This document shows positions 13,140 to 33,481 of a stretch of 33,481 nt of DNA, in pieces. A model generated the notes under the pieces. The model was given only the letters and a program-made list of their open reading frames with translations. It was not told where the DNA came from and did no database searches. This DNA comes from an uncultured Bacilli bacterium. GTDB lineage: Bacteria > Bacillota_I > Bacilli_A > ML615J-28 > CAG-313. Each line of letters starts with the position of its first letter. Within the stretch, counting starts at the first letter, position 1. The translations under genes and the position numbers were made by a program. The DNA is taken from assembly GCA_904501965.1 (NCBI GenBank), contig CAJGCS010000001.1, forward strand, positions 1 through 33,481, in the 5' to 3' direction.

Positions 13140-14039
13140 ATGAACAAAATATATGATACACATAGCGATATTTTTCATAATCTTTTTACAAGAAAAGATG
13201 AGGGATGCATAGATCCTTTTGAAAAATATCACTTAGAAAACTTAACAAAAGGAAATATCCAAGGTGGAATTTGGGTAGTTTACGGAGATAAAGATTTTGA
13301 TGTTTATCCTGCATATAAAAAAGCATTAGATGCTTTTGAACCTTATAAAGATAAATATGATGTTATCTATGGATTAGAAGGTTTAAGAAATGTGCATACA
13401 CTTGAAGATTTAAAGAAAATGTATAATTTAGGAATAAGACATGCTAGTCTTACTTGGAACGAGGAAAATCATTTAGCAACTGGTGTTGCAGGTCCTGCCG
13501 AAAGAGGATTAACTGATCTAGGAAAAGAATTTTTAGATTTCATGCAAGAAAATAAAATGATTATTGACGTTTCTCATTTAAATATAAAAAGTTTTTACGA
13601 TGTTTGTGAATATGTAAAAACACCAATTATTGCAAGTCATTCTAATGCATATACACTTTGTAATCATAGAAGAAATTTAAATGACGATCAATTACGAGTG
13701 CTAAAAGAAAAAGGCGGATATGTTGGGGTTGTTTCTGCAAGAAATTTTGTATCACCACAAAATGATAGAAAAACTGTAGCAGGACTTGTAGATCATATTG
13801 AATACATTGCCAATATTATCGGAATCGACCATGTAATGCTTGGCCTTGATATGATGGATTATTTAGATGATTTTAATGATCATAATTCAAACCTTGATGA
13901 TTTAGTAACACATGCCGATGCAAATAATGTTGTTACAGAAATGAGAAAACGAGGCTTTAAAGAAGAAGATATAAATAAAGTAACACATGAAAATTATTTT
14001 GAATTATTAAAGAAAGTAGGAGTTAAAAATGAAAAATAA
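13140..14039 (+). CDS. M19-family (renal-dipeptidase-like) dipeptidase, cytoplasmic
   Basis: N-terminal metal motif DTHSD, plus LTWNEENHLATG, IIDVSHLN and ASHSNA, which are the characteristic M19 amidohydrolase-fold blocks. No signal peptide is present. Confidence 0.8.
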   Translation: MNKIYDTHSDIFHNLFTRKDEGCIDPFEKYHLENLTKGNIQGGIWVVYGDKDFDVYPAYKKALDAFEPYKDKYDVIYGLEGLRNVHTLEDLKKMYNLGIRHASLTWNEENHLATGVAGPAERGLTDLGKEFLDFMQENKMIIDVSHLNIKSFYDVCEYVKTPIIASHSNAYTLCNHRRNLNDDQLRVLKEKGGYVGVVSARNFVSPQNDRKTVAGLVDHIEYIANIIGIDHVMLGLDMMDYLDDFNDHNSNLDDLVTHADANNVVTEMRKRGFKEEDINKVTHENYFELLKKVGVKNEK

Positions 14040-16461: not shown

Positions 16462-16464
16462 AAA

Positions 16465-17730: not shown

Positions 17731-17741
17731 TTAAAAATAAG

Positions 17742-17775
17742 TGGTGGTTTTTTATGAAAACCACCATTTTTATTT
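17742..17775 (+). terminator. strong rho-independent terminator
   Basis: TGGTGGTTTT (17742-17751), loop TTATG, then AAAACCACCA (17757-17766), followed by TTTTTATTTTC. Confidence 0.85.
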
Positions 17776-17855: not shown

Positions 17856-17884
17856 TTGAATAAAAACGCTTTCTTTGGTATAAT
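17856..17884 (+). promoter_or_regulatory. sigma-A promoter with extended -10 for the GH20/ABC operon
   Basis: TTGAAT (17856-17861), a 17-nt spacer ending in TGg (17876-17878), then TATAAT (17879-17884). A GAGGTGA RBS precedes the ATG at 17936. The spacer contains a cre-like element, TAAAAACGCTTTCT (17861-17874). Confidence 0.65.
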
Positions 17885-19774: not shown

Positions 19775-22700
19775 AACTAACTTAAAACACATTAAGCGTA
19801 TATTTACAATCGTTATGGTCGCATGTGCTGGTATCTTAGCCTTCTCTAACTTTAAAGGATTAAATAAAGTTGTTGCAGAAGAAAATCCAGAAATCAGTTT
19901 TGACGATGTATCAACATACGTAGATAATGAATATGATAGTTACTTAGAAGAACAATATTATAATCATGCTGAAAAACAAAAAGAATATACTATTGTTACT
20001 TCTGACATTAATCCTATTAATGCAAGTAACTATCATAAAGAAGGAACAGACATTTATTATAATGGTGATTTTGTTACAATTAAAGCAATTATAAGTAATG
20101 GTTATTTGTTCAAAGAAGAATCAACTTCATATAATTATGATACAGATATATATGAAGTTATTAATATCAATGATATTAATAAAGATGAAGGTGTTTCTTT
20201 AGATTTAATTGCAAGCAAAACAGTTATCTTAAAACAAGATAATGAAGATGGTTCTTCCACTTATTATCGTGAAAATGTAAAACTTGCAAATCTTCAAAAT
20301 GTTAAATTTGACGAAATGCTTCTTCAACAAGATGAAGGTAAAGTTACTTGGGAAGTAGTTGTTCCTAAAGCTGGTTTTTATAACTTAGCTATGAGTTATT
20401 ATCCAATTACAGGTAACAGTTCAAATATTGAAAGAAGTTTAGCAATTAACGGTAAGATTCCATTTGATGGTGCCGACACATTCTCATTCTCAAGAATTTG
20501 GCAAGACCGTGAAAGCTCTTATGAATTTGATGAAAATGGAAATAAAATTGGTTTAAAAACAGACGTTAAAGGAAATGATTTAAAACCTAAACAAGTTGAA
20601 AATCCATATTTAATTTCTTCATATTTTAGAGATGATATGGGATATGTAAATGAACCATATATGTTCTATTTTAATGAAGGTCCAAACTATATTACATTTG
20701 TTTCTGTAAAAGAACCAGTATTAATTGATCAACTAATTCTTGAAGGAAAAACAGTCTATTCAACATGGAAATTTGGAGATATAGATACTAACATTGAAGT
20801 TAACTACAATGATGAAGTTGTTTTCAAAGAAAATATTGTTGTAGAAAACGGACAAGAACGTAAAGTTACTTCATGGTGGATTAATGATAAAGATACAAAA
20901 ATCGAACACAAAGATGTTGAACCAGTTAAAGCATTAAAACAAAAAGGTATTTTAACTTATAAAGAGTATCTTGAATTGCATAAAGATAAAAAGAATGCAA
21001 CTAGTTCACCTGCAAGAATTGAAGCAGAAAATACATTCACAAAATCATCTCCAACACTTTACCCATCAACAGATAGATCAAGTTCACAAACTTATCCATT
21101 CTCATATACTACAACAAAACTTAATGTTATTGGTGGTACAAACTGGCAAGTTTTAGGTGACTGGATCACATGGCAAGTAACAGTTCCAGAAGATGGTTTC
21201 TACAACATTTCAATGCGTGCTAAACAAAATATGGTAAGAGGTATGTACTCAAGCCGTAAAGTTTACATCAATGATGAAATCTTATTCGATGAACTAAATG
21301 ACGTACAATTTAAATACAAAAACAATTGGCAAATCGTTACATTAGGTAATGATACAGAAGACTTCTTATTCTATTTAGAAGCAGGTCAAACTTATACAAT
21401 TAAAATGGAAGTTACTCTTGGACAATATGCACCACTTATCGAAGACTTACAAGTATGTATCGATGAATTAAGTGCAATTTATCGTATGATTATTGCTCAT
21501 ACAACTGTAACTCCTAAAGCTGGTACTGACTACCAACTTAAGAAAAATTTCCCATCACTTGAAAGTGATTTAATTAGAAACCGTGATGAGCTTGTAAGAA
21601 TTTCAAATGAAATTAGTGCAATCTCAGGTGGTAAGAGTGATAAAACAGGTGTAATTGATAACGTAGTTATTCAATTAAAAGACTTCATTAAAGACGTTGA
21701 AATTATTCCTACTCGTCTAAGTACATTTAGTAGTAACGTATCATCACTTGGTACATTACTTAATACATTAAGAGAGTTACCTTTACAACTTGACTGGGTT
21801 TGGGTTCATGCGCCTGAAGAAAAACTTCCAGCCGCAAATGAAAACTTCTTCAGAAAGATTTGGGACTCTGTTGTATCATTCGTTCTTTCATTCTTCCTTG
21901 ACTATTCTTCAATCAGCCAAACTGAAGAACAAGAAATAGTAGGTGAAGTAGTTGATATCGATGTTTGGATGACACTTGGTCGTGACCAAGCAAACGTTAT
22001 CAGAAGTTTGATTGATACGGACTTCGCGAAGAAAAATCCAAATATTCGCGTTGAATTAAAACTAACTGCGGGTGATGTATTATTAAAAGCAACACTTGCA
22101 GGTATTGGGCCAGATGTTGCCTTAAACGTTGATTCATCTTTACCAGTAAACTATGCATTAAGAAATGCAGTTATGGATTTATCAGATCGAATCTATGAAT
22201 ATGAATATAAATTAGAAACAAAAGATGGCAAACTTGCTCTTGGTAAGGATAAATTACCAATCCTTGCTAAAGATTCATCAGGTTCTTATACATATGCTAC
22301 TGATAGTTTAGGTAATAAGGTTATCCAAGCGACTTATTTACTTGCAGAAGATATGAAAAAATCTAGTGATTCATCTTTACCAACAGTTACTGATATTCAA
22401 TTATTTATGAATAGAACTTATCCAACATATTTTGATGCTTTAAGAGAAGAAATTAGATCAAAAGGTGTTGAAGAAAGTGCTGTTGAAAAAGAATTAATAG
22501 TTTTATTAAGCACTGAAGTTGTTATGAAAGCAGGTATGGCAATTCCAACATACTTATATGAATTATATCCTTCAATGTTTAGTGTATTAAGAAATATTGA
22601 CAATTCAAAAATTGTATCTAAACTTGTTAAAGATCAAGACTTCTTAATGATTCCTCAATATACTGATTTTAACTTCTGGGAACAAACAGGTGTTTATAAT

Positions 22701-23765
22701 CATGCAAATAATGTATATATGGAAAGTTCATTAAGACAATTCCAATTCCAATATGATTATAAAGATGGTACTTCAGGTTATGGAACTTATTCACTTCCTG
22801 AAAAACAAATCTTCTTAATGATGTTCGTTCGTGATGATATTATGAATGAACTTGGTTTAACTGAAATGATACCTGATACTTGGGATGAAATGATTGACTT
22901 AATTGCAGAATTACAAACTGACCAATTACAATTCTATCTACCAGTTAACTCTGAAGGTGCATCAGCACTTAACCCAATTTTCGTATCTAAGTTATATCAA
23001 CAAGGTGCAAGCATTTATGCATCTGATAATAGATCTACAGGTTTCAAGAGTGATGAAGCTATGAAAGCATTTGAAGAATGGACAGAATATTACACATTAT
23101 ATTCATTCCCATTAGCTGCTAACTTTACAAACCGTTTCCGTTCTGGTGAACAACCAATCGGTATTTCTTATTATGAATTATATAATACACTAAGTGTATT
23201 TGCTCCTGAGCTTAAAGGTCGTTGGTCATTCCATCAAATTCCTGGTACTCAAAAAGAAATTGAACTAGTAGATGATAATGGCAATAAGACTGGTGAAACA
23301 GTTGAATATATTGACAGAACAGCAGTAGCATCTGGTACAGGTTGTGTTATGATGAGACAATCTGGTGGTTCTGCAAAACATCAACAAGATTCTATGGACG
23401 CTGCTTGGGAATTTATGAAATGGTGGTCTTCAGCTGAAACACAAACTTCATTCGGTCGTGAAATGGAAGGTATCTTAGGTTCAGCAGCAAGACATACTAC
23501 TGCAAACGTTAAAGCATTACAACAACTTGCATGGAAGAAATCTGACCTTACTGTATTAATGCAACAATGGTCTTCAGTACATGAAATTCCACAAATCGCA
23601 GGTAGTTACATTACTGGTCGTGAAATCGAAAATGCATATCGTCAAGTAATTAATAACGGTTATAATCCTCGTGAAGTATTATATGAATATGCAGGAAAAA
23701 TTGATATTGAAATTGATAGAAAACGTCAAGAGTTTGGCTTAAAGATGTCAGGCGAAGGCAATTAA
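19767..23765 (+). CDS. giant (1332-aa) extracellular solute-binding protein with two N-terminal CBM6/35-like beta-sandwich modules fused to a family-1 sugar SBP
   Basis: N-terminal signal/anchor IFTIVMVACAGILAF. CBM-like module 1 lies at about 20300-20760 (KVTWEVVVPKAGFYNLAMSYYP...). CBM-like module 2 lies at about 21010-21425 (ARIEAENTFT...DWITWQVTVPEDGFYNISMRA...YTIKMEV). The SBP fold runs from about 21950 (VDIDVWMTLGRDQANVIRSLI..FAKKNPNIRVELK...GPDVALNV) to the end, with a large insert. A GGGAG RBS is present and the start overlaps the GH20 stop by 8 nt. Confidence 0.75.
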   Translation: MSRTNLKHIKRIFTIVMVACAGILAFSNFKGLNKVVAEENPEISFDDVSTYVDNEYDSYLEEQYYNHAEKQKEYTIVTSDINPINASNYHKEGTDIYYNGDFVTIKAIISNGYLFKEESTSYNYDTDIYEVININDINKDEGVSLDLIASKTVILKQDNEDGSSTYYRENVKLANLQNVKFDEMLLQQDEGKVTWEVVVPKAGFYNLAMSYYPITGNSSNIERSLAINGKIPFDGADTFSFSRIWQDRESSYEFDENGNKIGLKTDVKGNDLKPKQVENPYLISSYFRDDMGYVNEPYMFYFNEGPNYITFVSVKEPVLIDQLILEGKTVYSTWKFGDIDTNIEVNYNDEVVFKENIVVENGQERKVTSWWINDKDTKIEHKDVEPVKALKQKGILTYKEYLELHKDKKNATSSPARIEAENTFTKSSPTLYPSTDRSSSQTYPFSYTTTKLNVIGGTNWQVLGDWITWQVTVPEDGFYNISMRAKQNMVRGMYSSRKVYINDEILFDELNDVQFKYKNNWQIVTLGNDTEDFLFYLEAGQTYTIKMEVTLGQYAPLIEDLQVCIDELSAIYRMIIAHTTVTPKAGTDYQLKKNFPSLESDLIRNRDELVRISNEISAISGGKSDKTGVIDNVVIQLKDFIKDVEIIPTRLSTFSSNVSSLGTLLNTLRELPLQLDWVWVHAPEEKLPAANENFFRKIWDSVVSFVLSFFLDYSSISQTEEQEIVGEVVDIDVWMTLGRDQANVIRSLIDTDFAKKNPNIRVELKLTAGDVLLKATLAGIGPDVALNVDSSLPVNYALRNAVMDLSDRIYEYEYKLETKDGKLALGKDKLPILAKDSSGSYTYATDSLGNKVIQATYLLAEDMKKSSDSSLPTVTDIQLFMNRTYPTYFDALREEIRSKGVEESAVEKELIVLLSTEVVMKAGMAIPTYLYELYPSMFSVLRNIDNSKIVSKLVKDQDFLMIPQYTDFNFWEQTGVYNHANNVYMESSLRQFQFQYDYKDGTSGYGTYSLPEKQIFLMMFVRDDIMNELGLTEMIPDTWDEMIDLIAELQTDQLQFYLPVNSEGASALNPIFVSKLYQQGASIYASDNRSTGFKSDEAMKAFEEWTEYYTLYSFPLAANFTNRFRSGEQPIGISYYELYNTLSVFAPELKGRWSFHQIPGTQKEIELVDDNGNKTGETVEYIDRTAVASGTGCVMMRQSGGSAKHQQDSMDAAWEFMKWWSSAETQTSFGREMEGILGSAARHTTANVKALQQLAWKKSDLTVLMQQWSSVHEIPQIAGSYITGREIENAYRQVINNGYNPREVLYEYAGKIDIEIDRKRQEFGLKMSGEGN

Positions 23766-23779: not shown

Positions 23780-25144
23780 ATGGATATAGCATTATATATT
23801 ATATTTGGTATTTCAGTTGTTGCATTAGCAGTTTTATTCTTCTTTGTATTAAAAGGAGCTAAGAAAAAAACTGGTGGTTTCCAAAAAGAAATCAAAGCTC
23901 CTAAAGTTAAAAAACCTGAAAAATCTCGTGAAGAAAAAGCACGAGAAAAAGCAGAATTAAAAGCTGCAATGAAAGTTAAAAGAGCTGAATGGAAAGCTGA
24001 AGATAAAATATTCGATGATAAGTGCAAAGCTAATATTGTTGAGTTCAAAAAAGAAGTTAAAGAGAAAAAACCTCGTTACTTAGAACTTAAAAAAGCATAT
24101 CATGAAACAGTTAAATCTAAGAAAAATGATCAAGCAATTATTGATGAATATGTAGCTTATAGTAAAGAATATGAACGCTTACTTCAAAAGTTAAGAATCG
24201 AAAAAGATCGTATTTCTTTAATCAAGAAAGTTGATAGATGGAGTAAACGTGGAGGCAAATTAAGAAGGGAAATATTCGTTAAGAGACAATATTACTATTT
24301 AGTAGCTCCTTATACAATTTTATTCTTCATATTTACTGTTTTACCAGTTTTAATGTCTTTAGTATTAAGTTTCACAAACTTCAACTTACTTGAATTCCCA
24401 GACTGGGTTGGATGGGATAACTACATGCAATTATTCGTTAACGATAAAGTATTTATTATCGCTCTTCGTAATACTGCATTACTTGCTGTTGTAACTGGTC
24501 CACTTAGTTATATTATGGCATTCGTATTCGCATGGCTAATTAATGAATTAAAACCTCTTCTAAGAAGTTTCATGACATTAATCTTCTATGCTCCATCTAT
24601 TTCAGGTAACGTATACTTAATCTGGAAATTAATTTTCTCAAGTGATATTTATGGTTATGCTAATGCATACTTAATTCAATTTGGTATCATTGATGAACCA
24701 ATCACTTGGTTACAAGATTCAACATATATTATTTGGATCTTAATTATCGTACAATTATGGTTATCACTTGGTGTAAGTTTCTTATCATTCATCGCTGGTT
24801 TACAAAGTGTTGATAGAATTTACTACGAAGCTGGTGCTATCGATGGTATTAAAAACCGTTGGCAAGAATTATGGTACATAACTCTTCCACAAATGAAATC
24901 ACAATTATTATTCGGTGCCGTAATGCAAATTACATCGAGTTTGTCGGTAGCTGCGGTATCAATAAATATCGCCGGATTCCCGTCAATCGAGTATGCCGGA
25001 CACACAATTATTACTCACTTAATGGACTTCGGTAACCTAAGAATGGAAATGGGTTATGCGTCTGCAATTGCAACTATCTTATTCATTATCATGATTGTTG
25101 CAAATATGTTAGTAAGAAAAATTTTAAGAAGGATAGGTTCATAG
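23780..25144 (+). CDS. carbohydrate ABC transporter permease (MalF/CUT1-like) with a 170-aa N-terminal extension
   Basis: AGGAGG RBS. The core from about aa 171 has 6 TM segments and the EAA-type loop YYEAGAIDGIKNRWQELWYITLPQM. It is preceded by an extra TM helix (aa 4-24) and about 145 aa of Lys/Glu-rich helical sequence. Confidence 0.85.
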   Translation: MDIALYIIFGISVVALAVLFFFVLKGAKKKTGGFQKEIKAPKVKKPEKSREEKAREKAELKAAMKVKRAEWKAEDKIFDDKCKANIVEFKKEVKEKKPRYLELKKAYHETVKSKKNDQAIIDEYVAYSKEYERLLQKLRIEKDRISLIKKVDRWSKRGGKLRREIFVKRQYYYLVAPYTILFFIFTVLPVLMSLVLSFTNFNLLEFPDWVGWDNYMQLFVNDKVFIIALRNTALLAVVTGPLSYIMAFVFAWLINELKPLLRSFMTLIFYAPSISGNVYLIWKLIFSSDIYGYANAYLIQFGIIDEPITWLQDSTYIIWILIIVQLWLSLGVSFLSFIAGLQSVDRIYYEAGAIDGIKNRWQELWYITLPQMKSQLLFGAVMQITSSLSVAAVSINIAGFPSIEYAGHTIITHLMDFGNLRMEMGYASAIATILFIIMIVANMLVRKILRRIGS

Positions 25145-25145
25145 T

Positions 25146-26171
25146 ATGGCTTTAGGTAAAATTAAAGTAGATGACGATCAATTAGCTGGTGTTCAACTGT
25201 CTAAGGCTGAAAAGAAACGCCTTCGTCGTCAAGAAAAGAAATTAAAGAAGTATGGTATTAGAGACGAAAGTAAAATGAATAAAGTAGAAAAATTCTTCTA
25301 CAATATTCAAAAACGTCGTCGTATTAAAAAACGTAAACGTGTTAGCCGAAGCTTTATCGGTGATGCTGCACTATTCTTATTACTATGTGCTTTCGGTGCA
25401 TTCAGTGCTTATCCGCTTGTATATACAATTTTTGCAGCTTTTAAACCACTTGCAGAATTATTTATTTATCCACCTAAACTATTCGTAATGAATCCAACAC
25501 TTGATAACTTCAGTGACTTATCTAACCTTTTATCAGATTCATGGGTACCGTTTAGTAGATATTTATTTAACACAGTATTTATTACACTTGGTGGTACAGT
25601 TGGTCACGTGCTTATTGCATCAATGGCTGCTTATCCACTTGCAAAACACAAATTCCCAGGAAGCGTGTTTATTTTCCAAATGGTTGTTTATTCATTAATG
25701 TTCGCAGGTCAAGTAACAGATACTCCAAGATACATGATTTTCAGTTTCTTAGGATTAGTTGATACTCCGCTTGCAATTATCGTTCCAGCCTTTGCTTATT
25801 CACTTGGTTTATACTTAATGAAGCAGTTTATGAGTGATATTCCAACAGAGCTAATTGAATCAGCTAAGATTGACGGTGCGAATGAATTCCAAATTTATTG
25901 GAAAATCGTTATGCCACTAGTTAAACCAGCATGGTTAACATTAATTATCTTATTATTCCAAAACTTATGGAATACAGATGGTGGTACATTCATTTATAGT
26001 GAAGCTAAGAAACCTTTAAGTTATGCGTTACACCAAATCGTTGCTGGTGGTATCGCAAGAACAGGTACTTCAGCTGCAGTTATGCTAATTATGATGGCAG
26101 TGCCAATTACAGTATTTATCTTGTCACAAAGTCAAATCATTGAAACAATGGCACACTCAGGTATGAAATAG
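25146..26171 (+). CDS. carbohydrate ABC transporter permease (MalG/CUT1-like) with a ~68-aa Arg/Lys-rich N-terminal extension
   Basis: EAA loop ESAKIDGANEFQIYWKIVMPLVKP and 6 TM segments. The N-terminus contains KAEKKRLRRQEKKLKKYG...QKRRRIKKRKRVSRS. It starts 2 nt after the previous stop. Confidence 0.85.
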   Translation: MALGKIKVDDDQLAGVQLSKAEKKRLRRQEKKLKKYGIRDESKMNKVEKFFYNIQKRRRIKKRKRVSRSFIGDAALFLLLCAFGAFSAYPLVYTIFAAFKPLAELFIYPPKLFVMNPTLDNFSDLSNLLSDSWVPFSRYLFNTVFITLGGTVGHVLIASMAAYPLAKHKFPGSVFIFQMVVYSLMFAGQVTDTPRYMIFSFLGLVDTPLAIIVPAFAYSLGLYLMKQFMSDIPTELIESAKIDGANEFQIYWKIVMPLVKPAWLTLIILLFQNLWNTDGGTFIYSEAKKPLSYALHQIVAGGIARTGTSAAVMLIMMAVPITVFILSQSQIIETMAHSGMK

Positions 26172-26189: not shown

Positions 26190-29100
26190 ATGAGAAAAAT
26201 GAAAAATTTATTTAAAACATTAACAATCATCGCTTTAGTCTTTGGTTTCTTCTTTGCACCAATCTTTGGTAGTGCTAAAGCAATGAGTTATAACTATGAT
26301 TTCTGGAAAAATATTATTCCTTCTGCTGAAGGTATTGCTCATAAAGATACTTTCTATTCTGAAAATATTGAATATTACAAAAATGATGAATATGAACTTA
26401 AAGTAGAACAATTAAATAAACTATTAGATGATTTATCATTAAGTGATATTAAAGAGGTTGTATCAAAACCTAATTATAAAGAAATCACAGCTGATGATTA
26501 TAACAATGCAATTATTGCAATTGATGCAAAAGACTTAAATGATGAGACAAAAATAAATCTTAAAATCTTAATTAATCTGAAAAAAGAATACGAAGCTGAT
26601 CCAAACTTATATAAATCAATAAGCTTTAATACAATTACTGATATTCAAGTTTATGGAGATTATTTATATGTTTTATCAACTCCTACAGCAATGGACATTT
26701 CAAACGTTACTGGTACTGCAAGAGTTGCAGAACTTACTCAATTAATCATTATCAATAAAGAAATGAAATGGGAAACATGCATTAATGAATTTGAAATTAC
26801 AGAAAATGTAAGAGATTCGTTTGATGATTATTATCAATGGAATAGACTTAGTTTCTCTTCTGTTGCAACTGGTAAAAACCATACAGTTGCTGTAGATACA
26901 TCAGGAAATATTTGGGCATGGGGCTCAAATGAATATGGTCAAATTGGTATTGACCCATCAGTAGAAACTTATGTTGCAGAGCCTAAACAAATCACTTGGA
27001 TAGGTGATAAAAATGCAAGAGCATACACAAAAGTATTTGCTACAGATTACGCAACATTCGCTCTTGATTCAAATAATAATTTATGGGCATTTGGTAAAAA
27101 TGAAAATCATTTAATTTCAGGTGAACAAAATGAAGATTTTTATCAACATGAATTAATTAATATTGAATTAAAAGATACTATTGATGAAAATAACCCAGAA
27201 ACAGAAGTTACTGGTACTGTAAAAGTAGTAAGTGTTGCTGATGACCACATTTTCGTAATTGATAGCGAAAGCCGTGTGTGGGCATGGGGTGACAATAGTG
27301 ATAGATTACTTCAAGTTGAAAAAATTACAGAAGACATTGTTAAATCACCAAAACTTACAACTATTAATTTAACAAGAGAAGATAAATATAATCTTGATTC
27401 AGCAGGTAACCCTACAATAATCAAATTAAAACCAGTTGATATTCAAGCTGGTCAAAACCATACTGTAATTGTTGATGATGAAGCATCACTTTGGGCATGG
27501 GGATCAAATGATTATGGTCAACTTGGTTTAGGAGATTTTGTAAAAAGAACTGTTCCTACATTAGTTGAATTAAAGAAAAATAATGTTAAGGTTGGTGTAG
27601 CTTCAATTGCCGTTGGTCAAAACCATACAGCTCTTGTAGACAAACTTGGTGGTTTATGGGCATTTGGTTCAAATAGTCACTGTCAAATTGGTTTAAGTAC
27701 AGAAGATGGACTTACATTTGCACAACCATATGCATATTTCCATAAAAACATCGAATATACAAAAGTATTTGCTTTTGGAAATACAACATATGCAATTGAT
27801 ATGTCATATCAATCATATGTATTTGGTCAAAATGATCATTATCAATTAGGCTTTGTTGAAGAGGGAAAAGATTCAAGTCAATTACCTTATTCAATTAATC
27901 CAAATAATGTTTCATTAACATTTGTTGCTAACAGTGGTGATGCTACATTCGGTATTGACTCTTCAAATCGTTTATGGATTTGGGGTACAAGTGATACTAA
28001 ATTAGGATTTGGTTCAACAGAAGATATTAAAAATCCTAAATATAGTGACACAAGATTAGAATTAAATAATATTGCTATTGGCCGTTTAGAAAATTCAGAT
28101 ATTTATAAACGTGCAATCTATGTTGCTCATTCAAAAGATGAAACAAAACCTGCAGTTTACTTAAGAAGTGCTGCTGGTATCGCAGTAGATGAAAACTTCA
28201 TTTACATTGCAGACACACAAAATTCAAGAATTTTAAAAATTAATAAACTTACATATGTTGTTGAAGATGTTTGCTTAACTCCAGCAAATACAACATTCAA
28301 ACAATTAAATTTAGACTCAACTGTTCTACAAGCCGTTTCTCTTCGTCAATTTAAACCTACTAAAATTACAGTGTCTCCTACAGGTAGAGTTTATGCAATT
28401 GCAGAACAAGTTTACGAAGGTATTATTGAGTTTAATAAACAAGGTGATTATAACCGTTACTTAGGACAAAACGATGTTGTTGCAAATCCGCTTAAAGAAA
28501 TGCTTCGTGATTATTTAACTGAAGAACAACTTGCATCATTTGCCTTAACACTTCCACCACTATTTACAAGTATTAGTACAGATAGTAAAGGGTTCATTTA
28601 TGCGACATCTTACCCTGATACAGAATCTGGTTCTATTGCTGGTCAAAACATGGTTAAAGCAATTAATACATCTGGTAAAGACTGTATGAAACGTAATGGT
28701 TATGTAGCACCAAATGGTGATGCTGTTTATATTTCATCATCACAAAATTCTAAAGCAATTTTAGGCCCATCATATTTAGTTGACGTTGCAGTTAATAAAG
28801 ATGGTAACTTCACTGTTGTAGATGAAGTAAGAGGTCGTTTATTTACATATGACCTTGATGGTAACTTATTATATATCGCTGGTGATCAACCAGGTGGTAC
28901 AAAACAAAATGCATCAGGTTTATCTGAAAATATTATTAAACCAGTTGCAATTGATTATATGTATCGTACTTATACAAATGCTGATGGCGAAGAAATCAAT
29001 GACCAATTAATCATTGTTGCTGACCAACAATCTAAGAGCTTAATGTATTACGAAACTACAGAATTTGGACGTTTAGTAAATGAAGCTACTGGAGCTTATA

Positions 29101-29495
29101 ACCGTGGTGTTGATACTCGTGAAGAAGCAATTGCGGTTAGAGTTATTTGGGAAGAAGTTCGTCAAAGAAATACTAACTATGAATTAGCATACTTAGGTAT
29201 TGGTAAATGTATTTTAGTTGAAAGTGACTATGTTGAAGGTAAAACTGCAAAAGATATCACAAATGAACAATTAAAACTTTACCAAGAAGCTATGAAAAAC
29301 TTTAGACTTGCTCACTCTGGTACTTATTATTCAAAAGCATTTGGACGTTATCGTGACCAAATCTTAAGTGATAACTTCAGTTGGATTATGACAGCTGCTG
29401 TTATTATTGCAGTTGGTGCCGCAGGATGGTTTGTTTACAAAACTATCAAAGCAAAACAAGCTAAAAAAATTAAAGTGCAAGGAGGAAGTAAGTAA
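26190..29495 (+). CDS. surface protein with a seven-blade RCC1-repeat propeller plus an NHL-like propeller, a signal peptide and a C-terminal TM anchor
   Basis: Signal peptide ...IFGSAKA/MS. Seven RCC1-type blade signatures lie between about 26860 and 28030: WAWGSNEYGQIG, WAFGKNENHLISG, WAWGDNSDRLLQ, WAWGSNDYGQLGLG, WAFGSNSHCQIGL, YVFGQNDHYQLGF and WIWGTSDTKLGFG, several preceded by G(K/Q)NHT(V/A). NHL-like blades lie at about 28170-29060 (AGIAVDENFIYIADTQNSRILKI, PTKITVSPTGRVYAI, VDVAVNKDGNFTVVDEVRGRLFTYDLDGNLL, LIIVADQQSKSLMYY). The C-terminal TM WIMTAAVIIAVGAAGWFVY is followed by KTIKAKQAKKIK. Confidence 0.8.
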   Translation: MRKMKNLFKTLTIIALVFGFFFAPIFGSAKAMSYNYDFWKNIIPSAEGIAHKDTFYSENIEYYKNDEYELKVEQLNKLLDDLSLSDIKEVVSKPNYKEITADDYNNAIIAIDAKDLNDETKINLKILINLKKEYEADPNLYKSISFNTITDIQVYGDYLYVLSTPTAMDISNVTGTARVAELTQLIIINKEMKWETCINEFEITENVRDSFDDYYQWNRLSFSSVATGKNHTVAVDTSGNIWAWGSNEYGQIGIDPSVETYVAEPKQITWIGDKNARAYTKVFATDYATFALDSNNNLWAFGKNENHLISGEQNEDFYQHELINIELKDTIDENNPETEVTGTVKVVSVADDHIFVIDSESRVWAWGDNSDRLLQVEKITEDIVKSPKLTTINLTREDKYNLDSAGNPTIIKLKPVDIQAGQNHTVIVDDEASLWAWGSNDYGQLGLGDFVKRTVPTLVELKKNNVKVGVASIAVGQNHTALVDKLGGLWAFGSNSHCQIGLSTEDGLTFAQPYAYFHKNIEYTKVFAFGNTTYAIDMSYQSYVFGQNDHYQLGFVEEGKDSSQLPYSINPNNVSLTFVANSGDATFGIDSSNRLWIWGTSDTKLGFGSTEDIKNPKYSDTRLELNNIAIGRLENSDIYKRAIYVAHSKDETKPAVYLRSAAGIAVDENFIYIADTQNSRILKINKLTYVVEDVCLTPANTTFKQLNLDSTVLQAVSLRQFKPTKITVSPTGRVYAIAEQVYEGIIEFNKQGDYNRYLGQNDVVANPLKEMLRDYLTEEQLASFALTLPPLFTSISTDSKGFIYATSYPDTESGSIAGQNMVKAINTSGKDCMKRNGYVAPNGDAVYISSSQNSKAILGPSYLVDVAVNKDGNFTVVDEVRGRLFTYDLDGNLLYIAGDQPGGTKQNASGLSENIIKPVAIDYMYRTYTNADGEEINDQLIIVADQQSKSLMYYETTEFGRLVNEATGAYNRGVDTREEAIAVRVIWEEVRQRNTNYELAYLGIGKCILVESDYVEGKTAKDITNEQLKLYQEAMKNFRLAHSGTYYSKAFGRYRDQILSDNFSWIMTAAVIIAVGAAGWFVYKTIKAKQAKKIKVQGGSK

Positions 29496-30265
29496 TGATT
29501 TTAGAAGTTAAAATTATCTTAATTGCTCTTACAATCCTTGCTATTGCTGGTGTTGTTGGGCTAATCGTTGGTCTTGCAACTGGCAAACAAGAACTATGTT
29601 TAAAAATAGCAAAAGCTATTAAAGCAAAAATTGTTCAATTTTATAACGATGTTATTAAATTTCCAATTTACATCATTACACACCCAGTTCAAGGGTTTAA
29701 TGAATTTAAAGTTGAGAAAAAAGGTAAGATGTATGCAGCATTATCAATTCTTGCATTCTACATCTTAGTTCAAATCTTAACACCAAACTATGAAGGTGGA
29801 ACAACAAACGTTGCAAACCCAATGAATTTTAACAGTTTAAAAATTGTTGTATTTGGTGTTGTTCCTGTTATCTTAATCGCAGTTGCTAACTGGAGTATCA
29901 CATCATTATTTGATGGTAAAGGTAAAATGAAAGAAATCTTTATGATGATTTGTTACTGTTACTTCCCATTAGCAGTTTGTGGTTTATTAAGATTAATCGT
30001 TAGTAACTTTGTTACATCAGATGAAGTATTATTCTTAACTATTATTGATATAGTCGGTCTGTTTGGAACGGGTTATATGTTATTTATGGGGCTTGTCGTA
30101 ATTCATGAATACGGAGTATTTAAAACTATTATTTCAGTAATTGGTACTGTTGTTGCAATATTAATTATCTTATTCTTAGCATTATTAATATTCGACCTTG
30201 CTAACCAAGTATTTAGTTTCTTTAGCTCAATATTCAAAGAAATTATGGTAAGATTCATGTCGTAA
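29495..30265 (+). CDS. Yip1-family polytopic membrane protein
   Basis: The start shares one base with the preceding stop (TAATG), and a GGAGGAAG RBS is present. An N-terminal TM is followed by HPVQGFNEFKVEKKGKMYAALSILAFYILVQIL, which matches the HPxxGFxxLKxExKG pattern I associate with bacterial YIP1-family proteins. Four more TM helices follow. Confidence 0.65.
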   Translation: MILEVKIILIALTILAIAGVVGLIVGLATGKQELCLKIAKAIKAKIVQFYNDVIKFPIYIITHPVQGFNEFKVEKKGKMYAALSILAFYILVQILTPNYEGGTTNVANPMNFNSLKIVVFGVVPVILIAVANWSITSLFDGKGKMKEIFMMICYCYFPLAVCGLLRLIVSNFVTSDEVLFLTIIDIVGLFGTGYMLFMGLVVIHEYGVFKTIISVIGTVVAILIILFLALLIFDLANQVFSFFSSIFKEIMVRFMS

Positions 30266-30282
30266 AGGAGGGAGTATCGCAT

Positions 30283-33200
30283 ATGATAGTTATTCTTATT
30301 ACAGCAATTATAATTACAATTGTGGTGCTTCTTGCAAAACGCCGCAATAAAAAACAAAAAGAAGAACAACCAAAAGAAGTTGAAGTAGTTGTTCAAAAAG
30401 ATTCAAAAGAAGTTTTAGACGAAAAAGAATCAATTAAAAAAGCTGAAGAAATTGTAAGAAGAAGAAAAAGATATAATCGTATTCTTAAATTATCTCTTAC
30501 AGTAATCTTACTTGCAGCTATTGAAATTGTTGCTGGTATCTTCTTCTTCGATACATACAAAGCAAACAGTGCTTCATTCCATAATGCTACTTCAAAAGAA
30601 TATTGGAATACTCTTCCTGGTTTTGAACATTATGATAAATTATATGAAAAGTATGTTGAAACTGTAGATATTAATAGTGCTAAATATGTTAGCCCATTTG
30701 ATTATTCAGAGTCTATTTATGTTAACATCAAAAAAGCACGTTATCAAGAAGAATTAGATCTTCTTATAACACCATATAAAAATGAATTAAGAACTACAAA
30801 AGATGAAGATAGAAAACTAGAACTTGAAAAAATCATTGATGAAGCCGACCTTCATAAATCAACTCTTTCTCCTCTTAAAGATTATAAAGTAAAAGAAGCT
30901 TTATCATACAAAAAAGTAGCTGAAAATGATGGTTATGAATTTTGGTTACATATGGGTCTTACAACATTTAAAGTTGTAGACAAAGTAAATGGTACAGTTT
31001 GGTATTCAAATCCAGAAACTTACTCTACTGATAAAGAAGATGCTCAAAAAGACATCTTAAAAATTTGGTACAGTAGAACAGGATCTAATTCAGTAAGTTT
31101 TGGTACATATGATTATTCAACATCAACATCATTTAGAGGAAGTACAAAAGACGTTAATCCAAACTTTGCAGTAAAAGTTATTACTGAAGAAGTGGGCGGA
31201 AAAGATGTATCTACAATTCAAGTATGGTACAAATTAGAAGAACGTGGTGTTAACTGGACATATTTCCCTAAATACATTAGTAAAGCAACATTTGATGCTT
31301 TAGTAGCTGAAAATGCTCGTTTAGTAGCTGAAGGTGCTCAATATGATGATAATGGCACATTAAAAGATGTTACTGACATCACTACTTCAAAATTCGATAA
31401 AAAAGATGCTGTTACAATGGTCGAAAGAGTATTTACAAGTCCTGCAGCTGACTATAAACTTATCTCTAAAGATAGTGTATTAAATCAATTTGGAGAAGAT
31501 TATTATGAATATAATAGTAATCTTGAAAAAATGAATGACTTAGCATTAAACCGTTTATATATGCTTTACACACACTGTGGTTTTACTCTAGATAAATTAG
31601 AAGAAGAAAATGATTATTTCCAATCTATTTCTGATGAAAAAGGATTAGGACTTACAGTAAGTAATGTTACTCATTCAAATGCATCATTTACTGTTGCAAT
31701 TCAATACCAATTAACAGAAGATGGATTAAATGTTACTATTCCAGGTAATTCAATTTCTGAAAATGGTGAAAACTTAGTTGTTTATATCGACTTACTTGAA
31801 TACTTCACTGCTGCTCGAATTACAGAAGATGGTTACACAATTATCCCTGATGGAAGTGGTGCTGTATTAAATCATAATAATGGTAAGACTAATAACCTTC
31901 CATACAATAAGCGATTATATACAACAGACCTTTCAATGACAGAAGAAGTTATGAAAGCTTCTACTGAAGATATCATGTTACCAATGTATGCCGTAGTTAA
32001 TACTACAAGTAAATCAGCTGTTATTGCCGATGTAATCGATGGTGCAGCTCAAATGGAATTATATGCGGACATTTCTGGACGTGGTAATGAAACTCATAAT
32101 AGAAACTACTTTAGAATTCATTATCATGAATCTCAAGTTGTTAAAGTTTCATCTGTAATGCAACCAATTGATAAATATAATAATTTATTCATGAATAACG
32201 ATATTTCAGTTGACTTCCGTTTCTATGGAGCTGATGTTGTTGAAGATGGATATTCTGGTATTGCTCATGCATATCGTGATTTATTAGTTAAACGTTACGG
32301 TATGCAAAACAAAAAAGATACAACTGATGATTTAGTAATCGATATTGATGTTCTTGGTTCTTATAACTTTAAAAACAATGTATTTGGTATTGTTTATAAC
32401 GATAAAGAAACATTAACAACATATGAAGAATTACAAAAGATGATCACTGATATCGAATCAAAACAATTTAAGAATATTAACATATTCTATAAAGGATGGA
32501 GAGATACTACTTTAGTTAATACTTCATTCAAAAATATCAAAGCTTATAATGCCTTAGGTAAATTAAGCAAACTTGCAGAAATTGAAGATATGGAAGGCGT
32601 AAATGTTTATCCTTATATTAATTTCGGTCAAATTAATAAATATCAAGAATCATTTGGTAGCTATCACTACAATACAAGAAACGTAATCGGTGAAATTATT
32701 ACAATCTATCCTTATGACTTACAATCAAATATATGGAATAAGAAAGCTCAAAAGATTAATATTCTTTCTCCTCGTTACTATGAAGCATTTGCTCAATCAC
32801 TTGCAGATAGTTATTCAAGTGTGTTCAAAATTGGTAAGAAAAATGAAGTTCTTACAAATATCTCAGTTGATTCTCTAGGTTCAGTATTAACTGGTGACTA
32901 TCAAAAGAATCAAGAAATGTTTAAGATTAATGCTGTATACGAACAAATTAAGGCTCTAGAAGTTATTAAAAATGCTGGTATCACAAACATTAACTTATAC
33001 AAACCTTATGACTATGCATTCCCTTATGTTTCTAATGCAAAAGAAATCCCTTACGAATCTACACATTATGAAATTCTTAACTATTCAATTCCATTCTATC
33101 AATTAGTTGTAAATGGATTATTCGATTATAGTGGAGAAAGTATTAATGCTAACAGCGAAGAAGGTGTTAAATATCATATCTTAAGAATGTTAGAAACTGG

Positions 33201-33480
33201 TTCAAATGCATCATTCACATTCACTCATGATGGTTCAGAAGTATTATTAAAAACTGATTACAACCAATACTACTATACTGAATATTCATTATGGTTAGAA
33301 GAAGTTGCTAAAGTTTATAATGAAATTTCTTCTACTGGAGTTAGTGGATTAAGACTTGTAAAACATGAATTCATTAAAGAAGGTGTTTCATTAGTAACAT
33401 ATGCTTCAGAAGATGGTGCAAAACAAGTTCAAATCTTAATTAACAATACATTTACAGATTATGTAGACTCAGAAACAGGA
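30283..33480 (+). CDS. large membrane-anchored protein, DUF5696-like (3' end outside the window; not in the supplied ORF track)
   Basis: My manual translation of frame 1 from the ATG at 30283 (AAGGAGGGA RBS 9 nt upstream) is open for 1066 codons to the window end. The N-terminus is TM1 (IVILITAIIITIVVLL), a charged loop (KRRNKKQKEEQPKE...RRRKRYNR), then TM2 (LSLTVILLAAIEIVAGIFFF). A large extracytoplasmic domain follows, with motifs such as YTIIPDGSGAVLN (31843-31863 = IPDGSGA), LPMYAVV and NINLYKPYDYAFPY. The family assignment is from memory of DUF5696 proteins and is unverified. Confidence 0.75.
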   Translation, partial: MIVILITAIIITIVVLLAKRRNKKQKEEQPKEVEVVVQKDSKEVLDEKESIKKAEEIVRRRKRYNRILKLSLTVILLAAIEIVAGIFFFDTYKANSASFHNATSKEYWNTLPGFEHYDKLYEKYVETVDINSAKYVSPFDYSESIYVNIKKARYQEELDLLITPYKNELRTTKDEDRKLELEKIIDEADLHKSTLSPLKDYKVKEALSYKKVAENDGYEFWLHMGLTTFKVVDKVNGTVWYSNPETYSTDKEDAQKDILKIWYSRTGSNSVSFGTYDYSTSTSFRGSTKDVNPNFAVKVITEEVGGKDVSTIQVWYKLEERGVNWTYFPKYISKATFDALVAENARLVAEGAQYDDNGTLKDVTDITTSKFDKKDAVTMVERVFTSPAADYKLISKDSVLNQFGEDYYEYNSNLEKMNDLALNRLYMLYTHCGFTLDKLEEENDYFQSISDEKGLGLTVSNVTHSNASFTVAIQYQLTEDGLNVTIPGNSISENGENLVVYIDLLEYFTAARITEDGYTIIPDGSGAVLNHNNGKTNNLPYNKRLYTTDLSMTEEVMKASTEDIMLPMYAVVNTTSKSAVIADVIDGAAQMELYADISGRGNETHNRNYFRIHYHESQVVKVSSVMQPIDKYNNLFMNNDISVDFRFYGADVVEDGYSGIAHAYRDLLVKRYGMQNKKDTTDDLVIDIDVLGSYNFKNNVFGIVYNDKETLTTYEELQKMITDIESKQFKNINIFYKGWRDTTLVNTSFKNIKAYNALGKLSKLAEIEDMEGVNVYPYINFGQINKYQESFGSYHYNTRNVIGEIITIYPYDLQSNIWNKKAQKINILSPRYYEAFAQSLADSYSSVFKIGKKNEVLTNISVDSLGSVLTGDYQKNQEMFKINAVYEQIKALEVIKNAGITNINLYKPYDYAFPYVSNAKEIPYESTHYEILNYSIPFYQLVVNGLFDYSGESINANSEEGVKYHILRMLETGSNASFTFTHDGSEVLLKTDYNQYYYTEYSLWLEEVAKVYNEISSTGVSGLRLVKHEFIKEGVSLVTYASEDGAKQVQILINNTFTDYVDSETG

Positions 33481-33481
33481 A

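What the first reader, a model, noticed from the sequence alone, without database searches (positions are those of the whole stretch)
29495..33481. Yip1 membrane protein translationally coupled to a >1066-aa DUF5696-like protein with a TM / charged loop / TM hairpin; the latter is missing from the ORF track
The largest ORF at the 3' end (30283 to the window end, frame 1) is not in the supplied track because it has no stop inside the window. I translated it manually and found it uninterrupted.

Its N-terminus is unusual. TM1 is followed by about 50 highly charged residues (KRRNKKQKEEQPKEVEVVVQKDSKEVLDEKESIKKAEEIVRRRKRYNR) and then TM2. A very large extracytoplasmic domain follows, with motifs that resemble a glycoside-hydrolase-like barrel (IPDGSGAVLN, LPMYAVV, ..YKGWRD..).

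The preceding Yip1-family gene overlaps its own upstream neighbour by one base (TAATG). In eukaryotes Yip1 proteins act in membrane trafficking. The bacterial function is unknown.
Basis: partly seen in the sequence, partly recalled or inferred. Interest (0 to 1): 0.65.

Follow-up and report, generated by a model that had tools for sequence, protein, structure and literature searches.

The report
Glycosidase-like anchor protein of sugar-importer cassette
The open reading frame is a real, nearly complete membrane-anchored protein with the fold of a sugar-cleaving enzyme, and with its Yip1 neighbour and a beta-propeller protein it forms an unstudied accessory trio found inside a double sugar-importer gene cassette in many gut and soil bacteria.

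Summary
Frame 1 is open from 30283 to the window end (1066 codons). A 91%-identical homologue is 1078 aa, so only about 12 residues are missing. The protein is a strong DUF5696 match (E 1.8e-119) and has the TM / 48-aa charged loop / TM start described. The gene before it is a Yip1-family protein.

New here:
- The ectodomain, from about residue 207, is a remote homologue of GH129-like, GH129 and GH101 glycosidases (Foldseek E 1e-21; hhalign 98.4%).
- The catalytic Asp/Glu of those enzymes are not conserved. DUF5696 has its own conserved set: a PDGSG motif, D549, D933 and E971.
- In every sampled locus with enough flank, the gene sits in one fixed cassette: large binding protein, two permeases, propeller protein, Yip1, DUF5696, two more permeases. 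This held from Acholeplasma to Paenibacillus, Ruminococcus and Treponema.
- Propeller and Yip1 are fused in 18 of the 80 genome loci.
- Neighbouring glycosidases differ by lineage. Here they point to amino sugars.
- The two-TM hairpin is confined to the window's closest clade.

Best reading: a surface glycan-handling subunit of an ABC importer complex. Whether it cleaves glycans is unresolved. I found no paper that mentions DUF5696.

The parts
17936..19774 (+). GH20 beta-N-acetylhexosaminidase-like gene. It is the first gene of the transcription unit that holds the cassette. A terminator-like hairpin lies at 17739-17769 and a promoter-like site at 17856-17884, just upstream.
   Evidence: Pfam Glyco_hydro_20 and 20b. 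Terminator and promoter scan. GH20 holds the same position in relatives L004 and L008.
19767..23765 (+). Cassette gene 1: an oversized extracellular solute-binding protein of 1332 aa. It has an N-terminal anchor or signal, and the SBP_bac_8 domain appears only at aa 996-1231.
   Evidence: Pfam, hydropathy. A large SBP was found in this position in 38 of 39 loci with enough upstream flank.
23780..26171 (+). Cassette genes 2-3: the first pair of CUT1-type ABC importer permeases (23780-25144 and 25146-26171).
   Evidence: Pfam BPD_transp_1. NCBIfam weak matches to UgpA/UgpE/MalF/MalG types.
26190..29495 (+). Cassette gene 4: an extracytoplasmic beta-propeller protein of 1101 aa with RCC1-like and NHL repeats. 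It has an N-terminal signal or anchor (aa 11-29) and a C-terminal TM (aa 1064-1082). Its stop codon overlaps the Yip1 start.
   Evidence: Pfam WD40_RLD, RCC1 and NHL. Hydropathy. The homologous propeller gene precedes Yip1 in the related loci and is fused to Yip1 in 18.
29495..30265 (+). Cassette gene 5: a Yip1-family membrane protein of 256 aa. It has a 5-TM core plus an extra N-terminal TM at aa 7-25.
   Evidence: Pfam PF04893, E 7e-16. Hydropathy. A Yip1 gene lies directly upstream of DUF5696 in 72 of 72 loci.
30266..30282 (+). A 17-nt spacer holding the Shine-Dalgarno sequence AGGAGGGAG (30266-30274), 8 nt before the ATG.
   Evidence: Read directly from the sequence.
30283..30546 (+). N-terminal membrane hairpin of the DUF5696 protein. 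TM1 is aa 1-19, the charged cytoplasmic loop is aa 19-66, and TM2 is aa 70-88. TM2 is the anchor that the whole family shares.
   Evidence: Hydropathy. The AF2 model has helices 2-27 and 47-89 and a disordered stretch 28-49. TM1 and the loop occur only in homologues P0001-P0010 (61% identity or more) and in loci L001 and L003. The loop motif LDEKDSIKQAEEI..RKR is conserved among them.
30901..32232 (+). GH129-like N-terminal beta-sandwich domain (aa 207-650). A roughly 145-aa, partly helical insertion (aa 321-465) interrupts it. The domain holds the most conserved motif of the family: G517, P522-D-G-S-G526 (nt 31846-31860), N533, Y541, Y546 and D549.
   Evidence: hhalign to DagB-like proteins. 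PDB profile match at 'AEN..F.V.DK.SG..W.S.P'. Conservation across 79 sequences. The segment aligns with the DagB N-domain stretch 198-218, which helps build the active site.
32251..33330 (+). (beta/alpha)8 barrel (aa 657 to about 1016). Conserved residues are Y657, A661, Y664, G692, G702, T712, W739, Y776, D872 (77%), Y911, E921, position 933 (Asp in 89% of the family but Asn here), P937, F938, Q940, G945, N955, E971 and G973.
   Evidence: AF2 secondary structure, Foldseek, hhalign, conservation.
33340..33481 (+). Start of the C-terminal beta-sandwich (aa 1020-1066). It is cut by the window end about 12 residues before the stop codon.
   Evidence: AF2 strands 1024-1054. P0001 is 1078 aa long.

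Best explanation
The ORF encodes a membrane-anchored, outward-facing protein whose ectodomain is a divergent member of the GH129 / GH129-like / GH101 glycosidase superfamily. That fold is a beta-sandwich, a (beta/alpha)8 barrel, and a second beta-sandwich.

It is the sixth gene of a fixed eight-gene cassette: large binding protein, permease pair, propeller ectoprotein, Yip1 (5 TM), DUF5696, second permease pair.

Inferred mechanism:
- The propeller-Yip1 unit is a membrane scaffold.
- This scaffold holds the DUF5696 ectodomain next to the ABC permeases.
- DUF5696 binds, and probably trims, the incoming oligosaccharide in a conserved cleft. The cleft would be built from the PDGSG...Y546...D549 loop of the N-domain and from barrel residues D872, E921, D933, Q940 and N955.
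- The product passes to the second permease pair, which has no binding-protein gene of its own in this lineage.

In this organism, a 30%-GC uncultured gut bacterium of the Bacilli/Mollicutes type, the cargo is most likely HexNAc-containing glycan or peptidoglycan-derived fragments.

Shown here: the fold, the homology, the topology, the gene linkage and the neighbouring enzymes.
Inferred: physical complex formation, cleft function, catalysis and substrate.

The extra TM1 and charged cytoplasmic loop are a clade-specific addition of unknown role. They might be a cytoplasmic docking or regulatory handle.
For: Family and fold:
- DUF5696 match, E 1.8e-119.
- The AF2 model has pLDDT 83 and pTM 0.78.
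- Foldseek top hits are 5opq/8rzk DagB (E about 1e-21), NagBb GH129 (2e-18), GH101 (1e-11), then GH36 and GH31.
- Profile-profile alignment to eight DagB homologues gives probability 98.4%, E 9e-15, over 614 columns. It has about 20 shared anchor residues.

Cleft:
- The most conserved DUF5696 stretch (517-549) is homologous to the DagB N-domain segment 198-218. That segment supplies catalytic D202 and substrate contacts.
- Other conserved residues follow barrel strands: W739, D872/Y873, Y911, E921/P923 and N955.

Linkage:
- All 72 genome loci with enough flank have Yip1 directly upstream and a permease pair directly downstream.
- The same cassette is found at 20-27% identity.
- RefSeq annotates it the same way in Butyrivibrio.
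- Propeller and Yip1 are fused in 18 loci.
- The median Yip1-to-DUF5696 spacer is about 12 nt.

Precedent: the Yip1 protein YknW modulates assembly of the YknXYZ ABC transporter (PMC4887032).

Substrate context:
- In the window: GH20, three GHL10 genes, PIG-L and an M19 dipeptidase.
- Downstream in close relatives: DUF624, two NAGPA genes, GH3 and NagB.
- In Acholeplasma: NamZ, GH3, and MurK- and MurQ-like genes.
- GHL10 member Cwp19 hydrolyses peptidoglycan (PMC5765458).
Against: - The nucleophile Asp, the one catalytic residue shared by NagBb (D435) and DagB (D486), aligns to window N859. That column is G/N/S/T/A. With the other gap placement it aligns to S867. Neither placement gives a conserved Asp.
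- DagB E517 aligns to a variable column, and E531 falls in an insertion.
- D872 is only 77% conserved and E921 only 70% acidic.
- Acholeplasma laidlawii lacks W739, D872 and E921.
- The window protein has Asn at position 933, where 89% of the family has Asp.
- The same cassette sits next to GH32, GH10/43/30, GH5/130 or HexNAc enzymes in different lineages. This fits a generic accessory role at least as well as a specific hydrolase.
- No model coordinates were available, so I could not test whether the conserved residues cluster in space.
- No physical interaction data exist.
- No Yip1-DUF5696 fusion was found among 8 long family members.
Confidence: 0.5

Rival explanations
1. DUF5696 is a non-catalytic 'heavy chain'. 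On this reading it has lost hydrolytic function and serves only as a structural or substrate-receptor subunit of the ABC importers. It would stabilise, gate or load the second permease pair, standing where a binding-protein gene normally stands. This is analogous to the GH13-like ectodomains of 4F2hc and rBAT, which partner SLC7 transporters (my own knowledge).
For: - The canonical nucleophile and acid/base residues are absent across the family.
- The candidate barrel acids are patchy: D872 77%, E921 70%, and N933 in this protein.
- The cassette keeps the same conserved residues whichever glycan the neighbouring GHs target.
- The gene stands directly upstream of a permease pair. In 23 loci, including close relatives of this one, that pair is followed by DUF624 rather than an SBP.
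- The family has a single N-terminal anchor and a large ectodomain.
Against: - Four Asp residues (D523 96%, D549 94%, D933 89%, and D872 in all but one of the Paenibacillus, Clostridia and Treponema sequences) and E971 (90%) are conserved. That is more than a pure scaffold would need.
- The conserved N-domain stretch matches the DagB segment that supplies a catalytic Asp.
- NagBb and DagB themselves share only one catalytic residue (PMC5698469), so catalytic residues move within this superfamily.
- In 15 loci a normal SBP follows the second permease pair, so DUF5696 is not a general SBP substitute.
Confidence: 0.3
2. DUF5696 is an ordinary stand-alone surface glycosidase. On this reading it merely shares an operon with transporters, as many Gram-positive glycan loci do. 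Yip1 and the propeller protein would have unrelated roles, and the adjacency would carry no mechanistic meaning.
For: - The fold is that of a glycosidase.
- The operon contains other glycosidases.
- Surface GHs encoded next to ABC importers are common (my own knowledge).
Against: - Gene order is invariant in 72 of 72 loci across Bacillota, Mollicutes-like Bacilli and Treponema. It persists down to 20% identity, while all flanking enzymes change.
- No sampled DUF5696 gene was found outside the cassette.
- The spacers are tight.
- The canonical catalytic residues are absent.
Confidence: 0.12
3. The long ORF is an artefact: an assembly or sequencing fusion of several genes, or a pseudogene.
For: Nothing beyond its unusual length and the missing stop codon.
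Against: - Homologues of 1077-1099 aa with the same architecture occur on many independent contigs.
- One continuous, confident three-domain model spans the protein.
- A strong Shine-Dalgarno sequence precedes the ATG.
Confidence: 0.01

Closest known systems
DagB / ZGAL_3152, the 'GH129-like' alpha-1,3-(3,6-anhydro)-D-galactosidase of Zobellia galactanivorans (PDB 5OPQ, 8RZK)
   Same: Best structural match (Foldseek E about 1e-21) and the only sequence-level match in the PDB. Homology covers all three domains (hhalign 98.4%). About 20 anchor residues are shared, including Y657/Y300 at the barrel start and W739/W382.
   Different: - About 10-18% identity.
- DagB's D486, E517, E531 and D202 are not conserved in DUF5696.
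- DagB is a soluble periplasmic dimer from a Bacteroidota carrageenan locus. DUF5696 is TM-anchored, carries a 145-aa insertion in its N-domain, and is tied to an ABC, Yip1 and propeller cassette.
NagBb (GH129 alpha-N-acetylgalactosaminidase, Bifidobacterium bifidum, PDB 5WZN) and GH101 endo-alpha-N-acetylgalactosaminidases (PDB 3ECQ, 5A55)
   Same: Same three-domain fold (Foldseek E 2e-18 and 1e-11; TM-score on the target 0.65 for NagBb). These enzymes act on HexNAc-containing glycans, as the neighbouring genes here suggest for this locus.
   Different: No Pfam-level match, even at E up to 10. The nucleophile Asp (NagBb D435) has no conserved counterpart. I could not obtain a NagBb sequence for a direct alignment.
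YknW, the Yip1-family subunit of the B. subtilis YknWXYZ transporter
   Same: A bacterial Yip1-domain membrane protein encoded with, and needed for assembly of, an ABC transporter complex (PMC4887032).
   Different: YknXYZ is a MacB-type exporter with a membrane-fusion protein. Here the partners are type-I importer permeases, a propeller ectodomain (often fused to Yip1) and a GH-like ectoprotein.
CUT1-family sugar ABC importers of Firmicutes (MalFG, UgpAE and LplABC type, with a shared MsmX/MsmK-type ATPase)
   Same: Paired BPD_transp_1 permeases and an SBP_bac_1/8 binding protein. No ATPase gene lies in the operon. The genes are embedded among glycoside hydrolases.
   Different: There are two permease pairs in one cassette. 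The binding protein is 970-1330 aa long. Three invariant accessory genes sit between the pairs.
SLC3 heavy chains (4F2hc and rBAT) of eukaryotic heteromeric amino-acid transporters
   Same: A single-pass type-II anchor plus a glycosidase-fold ectodomain attached to a transporter. This is an analogy from my own knowledge.
   Different: Unrelated sequence family (GH13-like), eukaryotic, with secondary transporters as partners. Loss of catalysis is established there but only suspected here.

Membership tests
Pfam DUF5696 (PF18952) | HMM score above the gathering threshold (25.6 bits) | tested here: met
   400.5 bits, E 1.8e-119, aa 464-1060 covering profile positions 17-600 of 612.
Pfam DUF5696 (PF18952) | Family-wide conserved residues (PDGSG, Y546, D549, Y657, P937-F938, Q940, N955, E971) | tested here: met
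   All are present except position 933, where 89% of 79 family members have Asp and this protein has Asn.
GH129 / GH129-like (DagB) / GH101 superfamily | Three-domain architecture: N beta-sandwich, (beta/alpha)8 barrel, C beta-sandwich | tested here: met
   Foldseek E 1e-21 to 1e-11. hhalign 98.4% over 614 columns.
GH129 / GH129-like (DagB) / GH101 superfamily | Catalytic nucleophile Asp after barrel strand 4 (NagBb D435 = DagB D486) | tested here: not met
   It aligns to window N859, a G/N/S/T/A column, or to S867 with the other gap placement. D863 is Asp in only 10 of 79 sequences.
GH129-like (DagB) | Further catalytic acids E517, E531 and D202 (inactive when mutated) | tested here: not met
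   E517 aligns to the variable Y906 column. E531 falls in a DagB-specific insertion. D202 aligns to N538, a Y/Q/A column.
GH129, GH101, GH31, GH36 (sequence families) | Match to the family's Pfam model | tested here: not met
   Six DUF5696 proteins gave no such match, even at E up to 10.
Glycoside hydrolase (any) | Hydrolytic activity on a glycoside | not testable with these tools
   This needs an enzyme assay. The alternative conserved acids D523, D549, D872, D933 and E971 could form a site, but no model coordinates were available to check their geometry.
Yip1 (PF04893), neighbour gene 29495-30265 | HMM above the gathering threshold and a five-TM core | tested here: met
   59 bits against a 28.6 cut-off. 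Hydropathy gives five core TM segments plus one extra N-terminal TM.
YknW-like Yip1 accessory of an ABC transporter | Physical association with the transporter and an effect on its assembly | not testable with these tools
   Only gene linkage is shown: 72 of 72 loci.
CUT1 ABC sugar importer | Two BPD_transp_1 permeases plus an extracellular binding protein | tested here: met
   The second permease pair lies downstream in the 91%-identical relative L001.
CUT1 ABC sugar importer | A cognate ATPase subunit | tested here: inconclusive
   No ABC_tran gene was found in the 33-kb window or in the L001 or L003 flanks. Firmicute CUT1 systems often use an ATPase encoded elsewhere (my own knowledge).

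The most novel reading that the evidence does not exclude
DUF5696, Yip1 and the NHL propeller protein form a previously unrecognised, obligate accessory module. It would turn two CUT1 ABC importers into one surface supercomplex. Within it, a glycosidase-fold ectodomain that has lost the ancestral catalytic residues acts as a substrate receptor or 'heavy chain' for a permease pair, partly replacing a binding protein. Yip1 would be the membrane organiser. This would give the first role for bacterial Yip1 proteins in nutrient uptake and define a new architecture of ABC importer.
Probability: 0.3. Interest if true: 0.8.

Novelty: new variant of a known kind. Interest (0 to 1): 0.6.

Why it matters
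DUF5696 is a large family: 5815 clusters at 50% identity and at least 577 hits among species-representative genomes. No paper in the searched library mentions it.

This work gives the family a fold and superfamily (GH129-like / GH129 / GH101). It shows that the ancestral catalytic residues are gone. It also shows that the gene is never found alone in the sample: it is always locked between Yip1 with its propeller partner and a second ABC permease pair.

That makes three things testable:
- what bacterial Yip1 proteins do;
- why some Gram-positive, Mollicutes-type and spirochaete sugar importers carry four permease genes and a 1000-aa binding protein;
- whether a glycosidase fold has been recruited as a transporter subunit.

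The cassette is widespread in gut, rumen and termite-gut fibre degraders, and in wall-less Acholeplasma next to peptidoglycan-salvage genes. It probably matters for how these organisms capture glycans.

Tried and rejected
- **Second homologue search.** Searching with alignment A1 returned only proteins I already had. The search was wasted.
- **DagB fragment against the protein collection.** The 141-aa DagB fragment found nothing. I recovered DagB homologues from the metagenome collection instead.
- **3D clustering of conserved residues.** I could not test this because model coordinates are not exposed. I substituted secondary-structure position and homology mapping.
- **Weak Pfam matches to GH129, GH101, GH31 or GH36.** None appeared at E up to 10.
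- **Yip1-DUF5696 fusion proteins.** None were found among 8 unusually long family members. One carries an aBig_2 domain.
- **Rfam scan of the window.** No RNA family matched.
- **Internal start at TM2.** I considered that TM1 and the loop might be a mis-called 5' extension. I rejected this for three reasons: a strong Shine-Dalgarno sequence lies 8 nt before the ATG at 30283; TM1 and the loop are kept in ten homologues at 61-91% identity; and the loop motif is conserved.
- **Artefactual fusion ORF.** Rejected.
- **Literature searches.** Searches for DUF5696, ZgGH129, and Yip1 with ABC transporters found no study of this cassette.

Full report
**Observation.** Frame 1 from 30283 to the window end translates to 1066 residues without a stop. 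The ORF tool omits it only because it runs off the end. At 30.4% GC, a stop-free run of this length has a chance of about 1e-38 by my estimate. The nearest homologue, P0001, is 91% identical and 1078 aa long, and it occurs on several independent contigs. The gene is therefore real and lacks only about 12 C-terminal residues. Pfam gives DUF5696 at E 1.8e-119 over aa 464-1060. Hydropathy and the AF2 model agree on TM1 (aa 1-19), a 48-aa loop with 18 K/R and 11 D/E, and TM2 (aa 70-88). By the positive-inside rule the loop is cytoplasmic and the large domain faces outward. The 256-aa upstream gene is a Yip1-family protein (E 7e-16). Its ATG overlaps the stop codon of the gene before it (TAATG). 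Yip1 and the DUF5696 gene are separated by 17 nt that carry AGGAGGGAG 8 nt before the ATG. They are adjacent but do not overlap.

**Fold and superfamily.** An AF2 model built on 28 homologues is confident (pLDDT 83, pTM 0.78). Foldseek against the PDB ranks the hits as follows:
- the Zobellia 'GH129-like' 3,6-anhydro-D-galactosidase DagB (5opq/8rzk, E about 1e-21);
- the Bifidobacterium GH129 alpha-N-acetylgalactosaminidase NagBb (E 2e-18);
- GH101 enzymes (E 1e-11);
- GH36, GH31 and GH97.

A sequence profile of the family already finds DagB in the PDB at E 6e-5, in two collinear stretches. I recovered eight DagB homologues from metagenomes. A profile-profile alignment against 79 DUF5696 proteins gives 98.4% probability, E 9e-15, over 614 columns and all three domains. 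The homologous region starts at about residue 207. This is well before the Pfam domain boundary, and a roughly 145-aa insertion (aa 321-465) splits the N-terminal sandwich. About twenty anchor residues are shared, for example Y657 = DagB Y300 at the barrel start and W739 = W382.

**Catalytic residues.** Ficko-Blean et al. (PMC5698469) showed that DagB is inactivated by mutating D486, E517, E531 or D202. D202 comes from N-domain helices of the partner monomer. They also showed that only D486 (= NagBb D435) is shared with GH129 proper. In my alignment D486 falls on window N859, a G/N/S/T/A column, or on S867 if the local gap is moved. E517 falls on a variable column, E531 lies in a DagB-specific insertion, and D202 falls on N538. 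The ancestral catalytic set is therefore absent from the whole DUF5696 family, and no GH Pfam model matches even weakly.

DUF5696 has its own conserved polar set across 79 sequences:

| Residue | Conservation |
|---|---|
| D523, in an invariant G..IPDGSG motif | 96% |
| Y546 | 99% |
| D549 | 94% |
| Position 933 (Asp in the family; Asn in this window and in P0001) | 89% |
| Q940 | 95% |
| N955 | 99% |
| E971 | 90% |
| D872 (Asp in all but one of the Paenibacillus, Clostridia and Treponema sequences; variable in Acholeplasma-like lineages) | 77% |

The 517-549 stretch is homologous to the DagB segment 198-218, which contributes D202 and substrate contacts. Several other conserved residues follow barrel strands. 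A functional cleft at the usual place is therefore plausible. Whether the protein hydrolyses anything remains open.

**Genomic context, the main result.** Close relatives show the order GH20, large SBP, two permeases, propeller protein, Yip1, DUF5696, two permeases, DUF624, NAGPA genes, GH3, NagB. A scan of one genome per species found at least 577 relatives. I called ORFs in the best 80 loci and searched them with HMMs built from the cassette proteins. The results were:
- all 72 loci with enough upstream sequence have Yip1 directly before DUF5696;
- all 72 with enough downstream sequence have a permease pair directly after it;
- 38 of 39 loci with long upstream flanks have the large SBP and the first permease pair;
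- in 18 loci the propeller protein and Yip1 are one polypeptide.

The taxa include uncultured gut Bacilli and Mollicutes, Acholeplasma, Erysipelotrichaceae, Paenibacillus, Cohnella, Ruminococcus, Oscillospiraceae, Lachnospiraceae, termite-gut Treponema and Halanaerobiales. The most distant homologues I had (20-27% identity) sit in the same cassette. RefSeq annotates the same order on Butyrivibrio fibrisolvens plasmid pNP243: extracellular solute-binding protein, two permeases, NHL repeat-containing protein, YIP1 family protein, DUF5696 domain-containing protein, two permeases, then binding proteins. An exhaustive HMM search finds 5815 clusters at 50% identity, typically about 850 aa long.

The flanking genes vary:
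- In Mollicutes-like lineages they are NAGPA, GH3, NagB, GNAT, NanE and MurQ/MurK-like genes.
- In Paenibacillus, Clostridia and Treponema they are GH32, GH43, GH30, GH10, GH5 and GH130, and often a normal-sized second binding protein.

The cassette is thus a constant machine placed next to variable glycan-specific enzymes.

**Topology and the hairpin.** Nearly all family members have one N-terminal TM, a type-II anchor. The TM1-loop-TM2 form occurs only in homologues P0001-P0010 (61% identity or more), which include the proteins of loci L001 and L003. In those proteins the loop motif LDEKDSIKQAEEI..RKR is conserved. Separate propeller proteins have a signal or anchor and a C-terminal TM. The fused proteins are simply propeller, TM, then five-TM Yip1. 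This places the propeller outside and the lysine-rich Yip1 N-region inside. In this window the propeller protein is enlarged by an RCC1-like domain, and Yip1 has an extra N-terminal TM.

**Local operon and likely cargo.** A terminator-like hairpin at 17739-17769 and a promoter-like site at 17856-17884 precede GH20. No convincing terminator follows up to the window end. Upstream lie three GHL10 genes, a PIG-L deacetylase, an M19 dipeptidase, a double GNAT and a beta-lactamase-fold protein. The one characterised GHL10 protein, Cwp19, lyses peptidoglycan (PMC5765458). Acholeplasma has NamZ, GH3, and MurK- and MurQ-like genes after its cassette. HexNAc glycans or peptidoglycan-derived fragments are the most likely cargo in this lineage. 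This is an inference.

**Mechanism and rivals.**
- Best reading (0.5): DUF5696 is the glycan-handling ectodomain of a membrane complex. Propeller-Yip1 is the scaffold and the ABC permeases are the sink. YknW is the precedent for a Yip1 protein organising an ABC transporter (PMC4887032).
- Main rival (0.3): DUF5696 is non-catalytic and acts as a heavy-chain or receptor subunit. The lost catalytic residues, the patchy barrel acids and the substrate-agnostic context favour this. The four conserved Asp residues count against it.
- Co-located independent glycosidase (0.12): this fits poorly with the invariant gene order.
- Artefact (0.01): excluded.

**Novelty.** The family and the gene names already exist in databases, but no paper in the searched library mentions DUF5696. 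The superfamily assignment, the loss of the ancestral catalytic residues and the invariant eight-gene cassette with Yip1 appear to be undescribed. I rate it a new variant of a known kind: a sugar ABC importer locus with a GH-fold surface protein. Interest is 0.6.

**Limits.** There are no coordinates, no NagBb sequence, and no interaction or activity data. The locus sample is the best 80 of at least 577 hits, plus a few metagenome contigs. My HMMs were built from cassette members themselves.

Noticed in passing
window 32251-33330 (aa 933 = nt 33079-33081): The window protein and its 91% relative P0001 have Asn at a position where 70 of 79 family members have Asp (EILNYSIPF here, EILDYSIPF in most). 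The 64-68% relatives keep Asp. This could be a recent change at a functional residue.
   Followed up: partly
window 7731-17730: Upstream lies a block of genes on the + strand: a beta-lactamase-fold protein, a double-GNAT protein, a PIG-L deacetylase, an 859-aa GHL10 protein, an M19 dipeptidase, an 810-aa GHL10 protein and a 421-aa GHL10 protein. Two of the GHL10 proteins carry Listeria-Bacteroides repeats. Together they look like a peptidoglycan or HexNAc-polymer salvage set.
   Followed up: partly
window 19767-23765: The solute-binding protein is 1332 aa long, and its recognisable SBP domain appears only at aa 996-1231. There are faint CBM35 and Golvesin-C matches in the N-terminal 900 aa. 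Cassette SBPs are about 970 aa in most lineages, roughly twice the normal size.
   Followed up: partly
window 23780-25144: The first permease (454 aa) has an extra N-terminal TM (aa 5-23) and about 155 residues before the next TM. In relatives L004 and L009 the homologous permease is about 630-640 aa long.
   Followed up: no
window 6237-6483: A 248-nt leader precedes the tyrosyl-tRNA synthetase gene, but Rfam finds no T-box or any other RNA family in the window.
   Followed up: partly
window 534-3700: A stand-alone condensation-domain protein (454 aa, + strand) lies next to two tandem TMEM164-family membrane proteins on the - strand. This is an unusual pairing. I did not examine it.
   Followed up: no
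L016, L031, L034, L050: Contigs carrying Mollicutes-type cassettes (28-37% identity to the window protein) are labelled Prevotella sp. or Bacteroidales MAGs. This is probably a binning error rather than true Bacteroidota carriage.
   Followed up: no
L001 13248-23237; L003; L004: In close relatives, the second permease pair is followed by DUF624, two NAGPA (phosphodiester alpha-GlcNAcase-like) proteins of 750-830 aa, GH3 and NagB. NAGPA paralogues are the commonest flanking family in Mollicutes-like loci: 21 of the 74 flanking ORFs scanned.
   Followed up: partly
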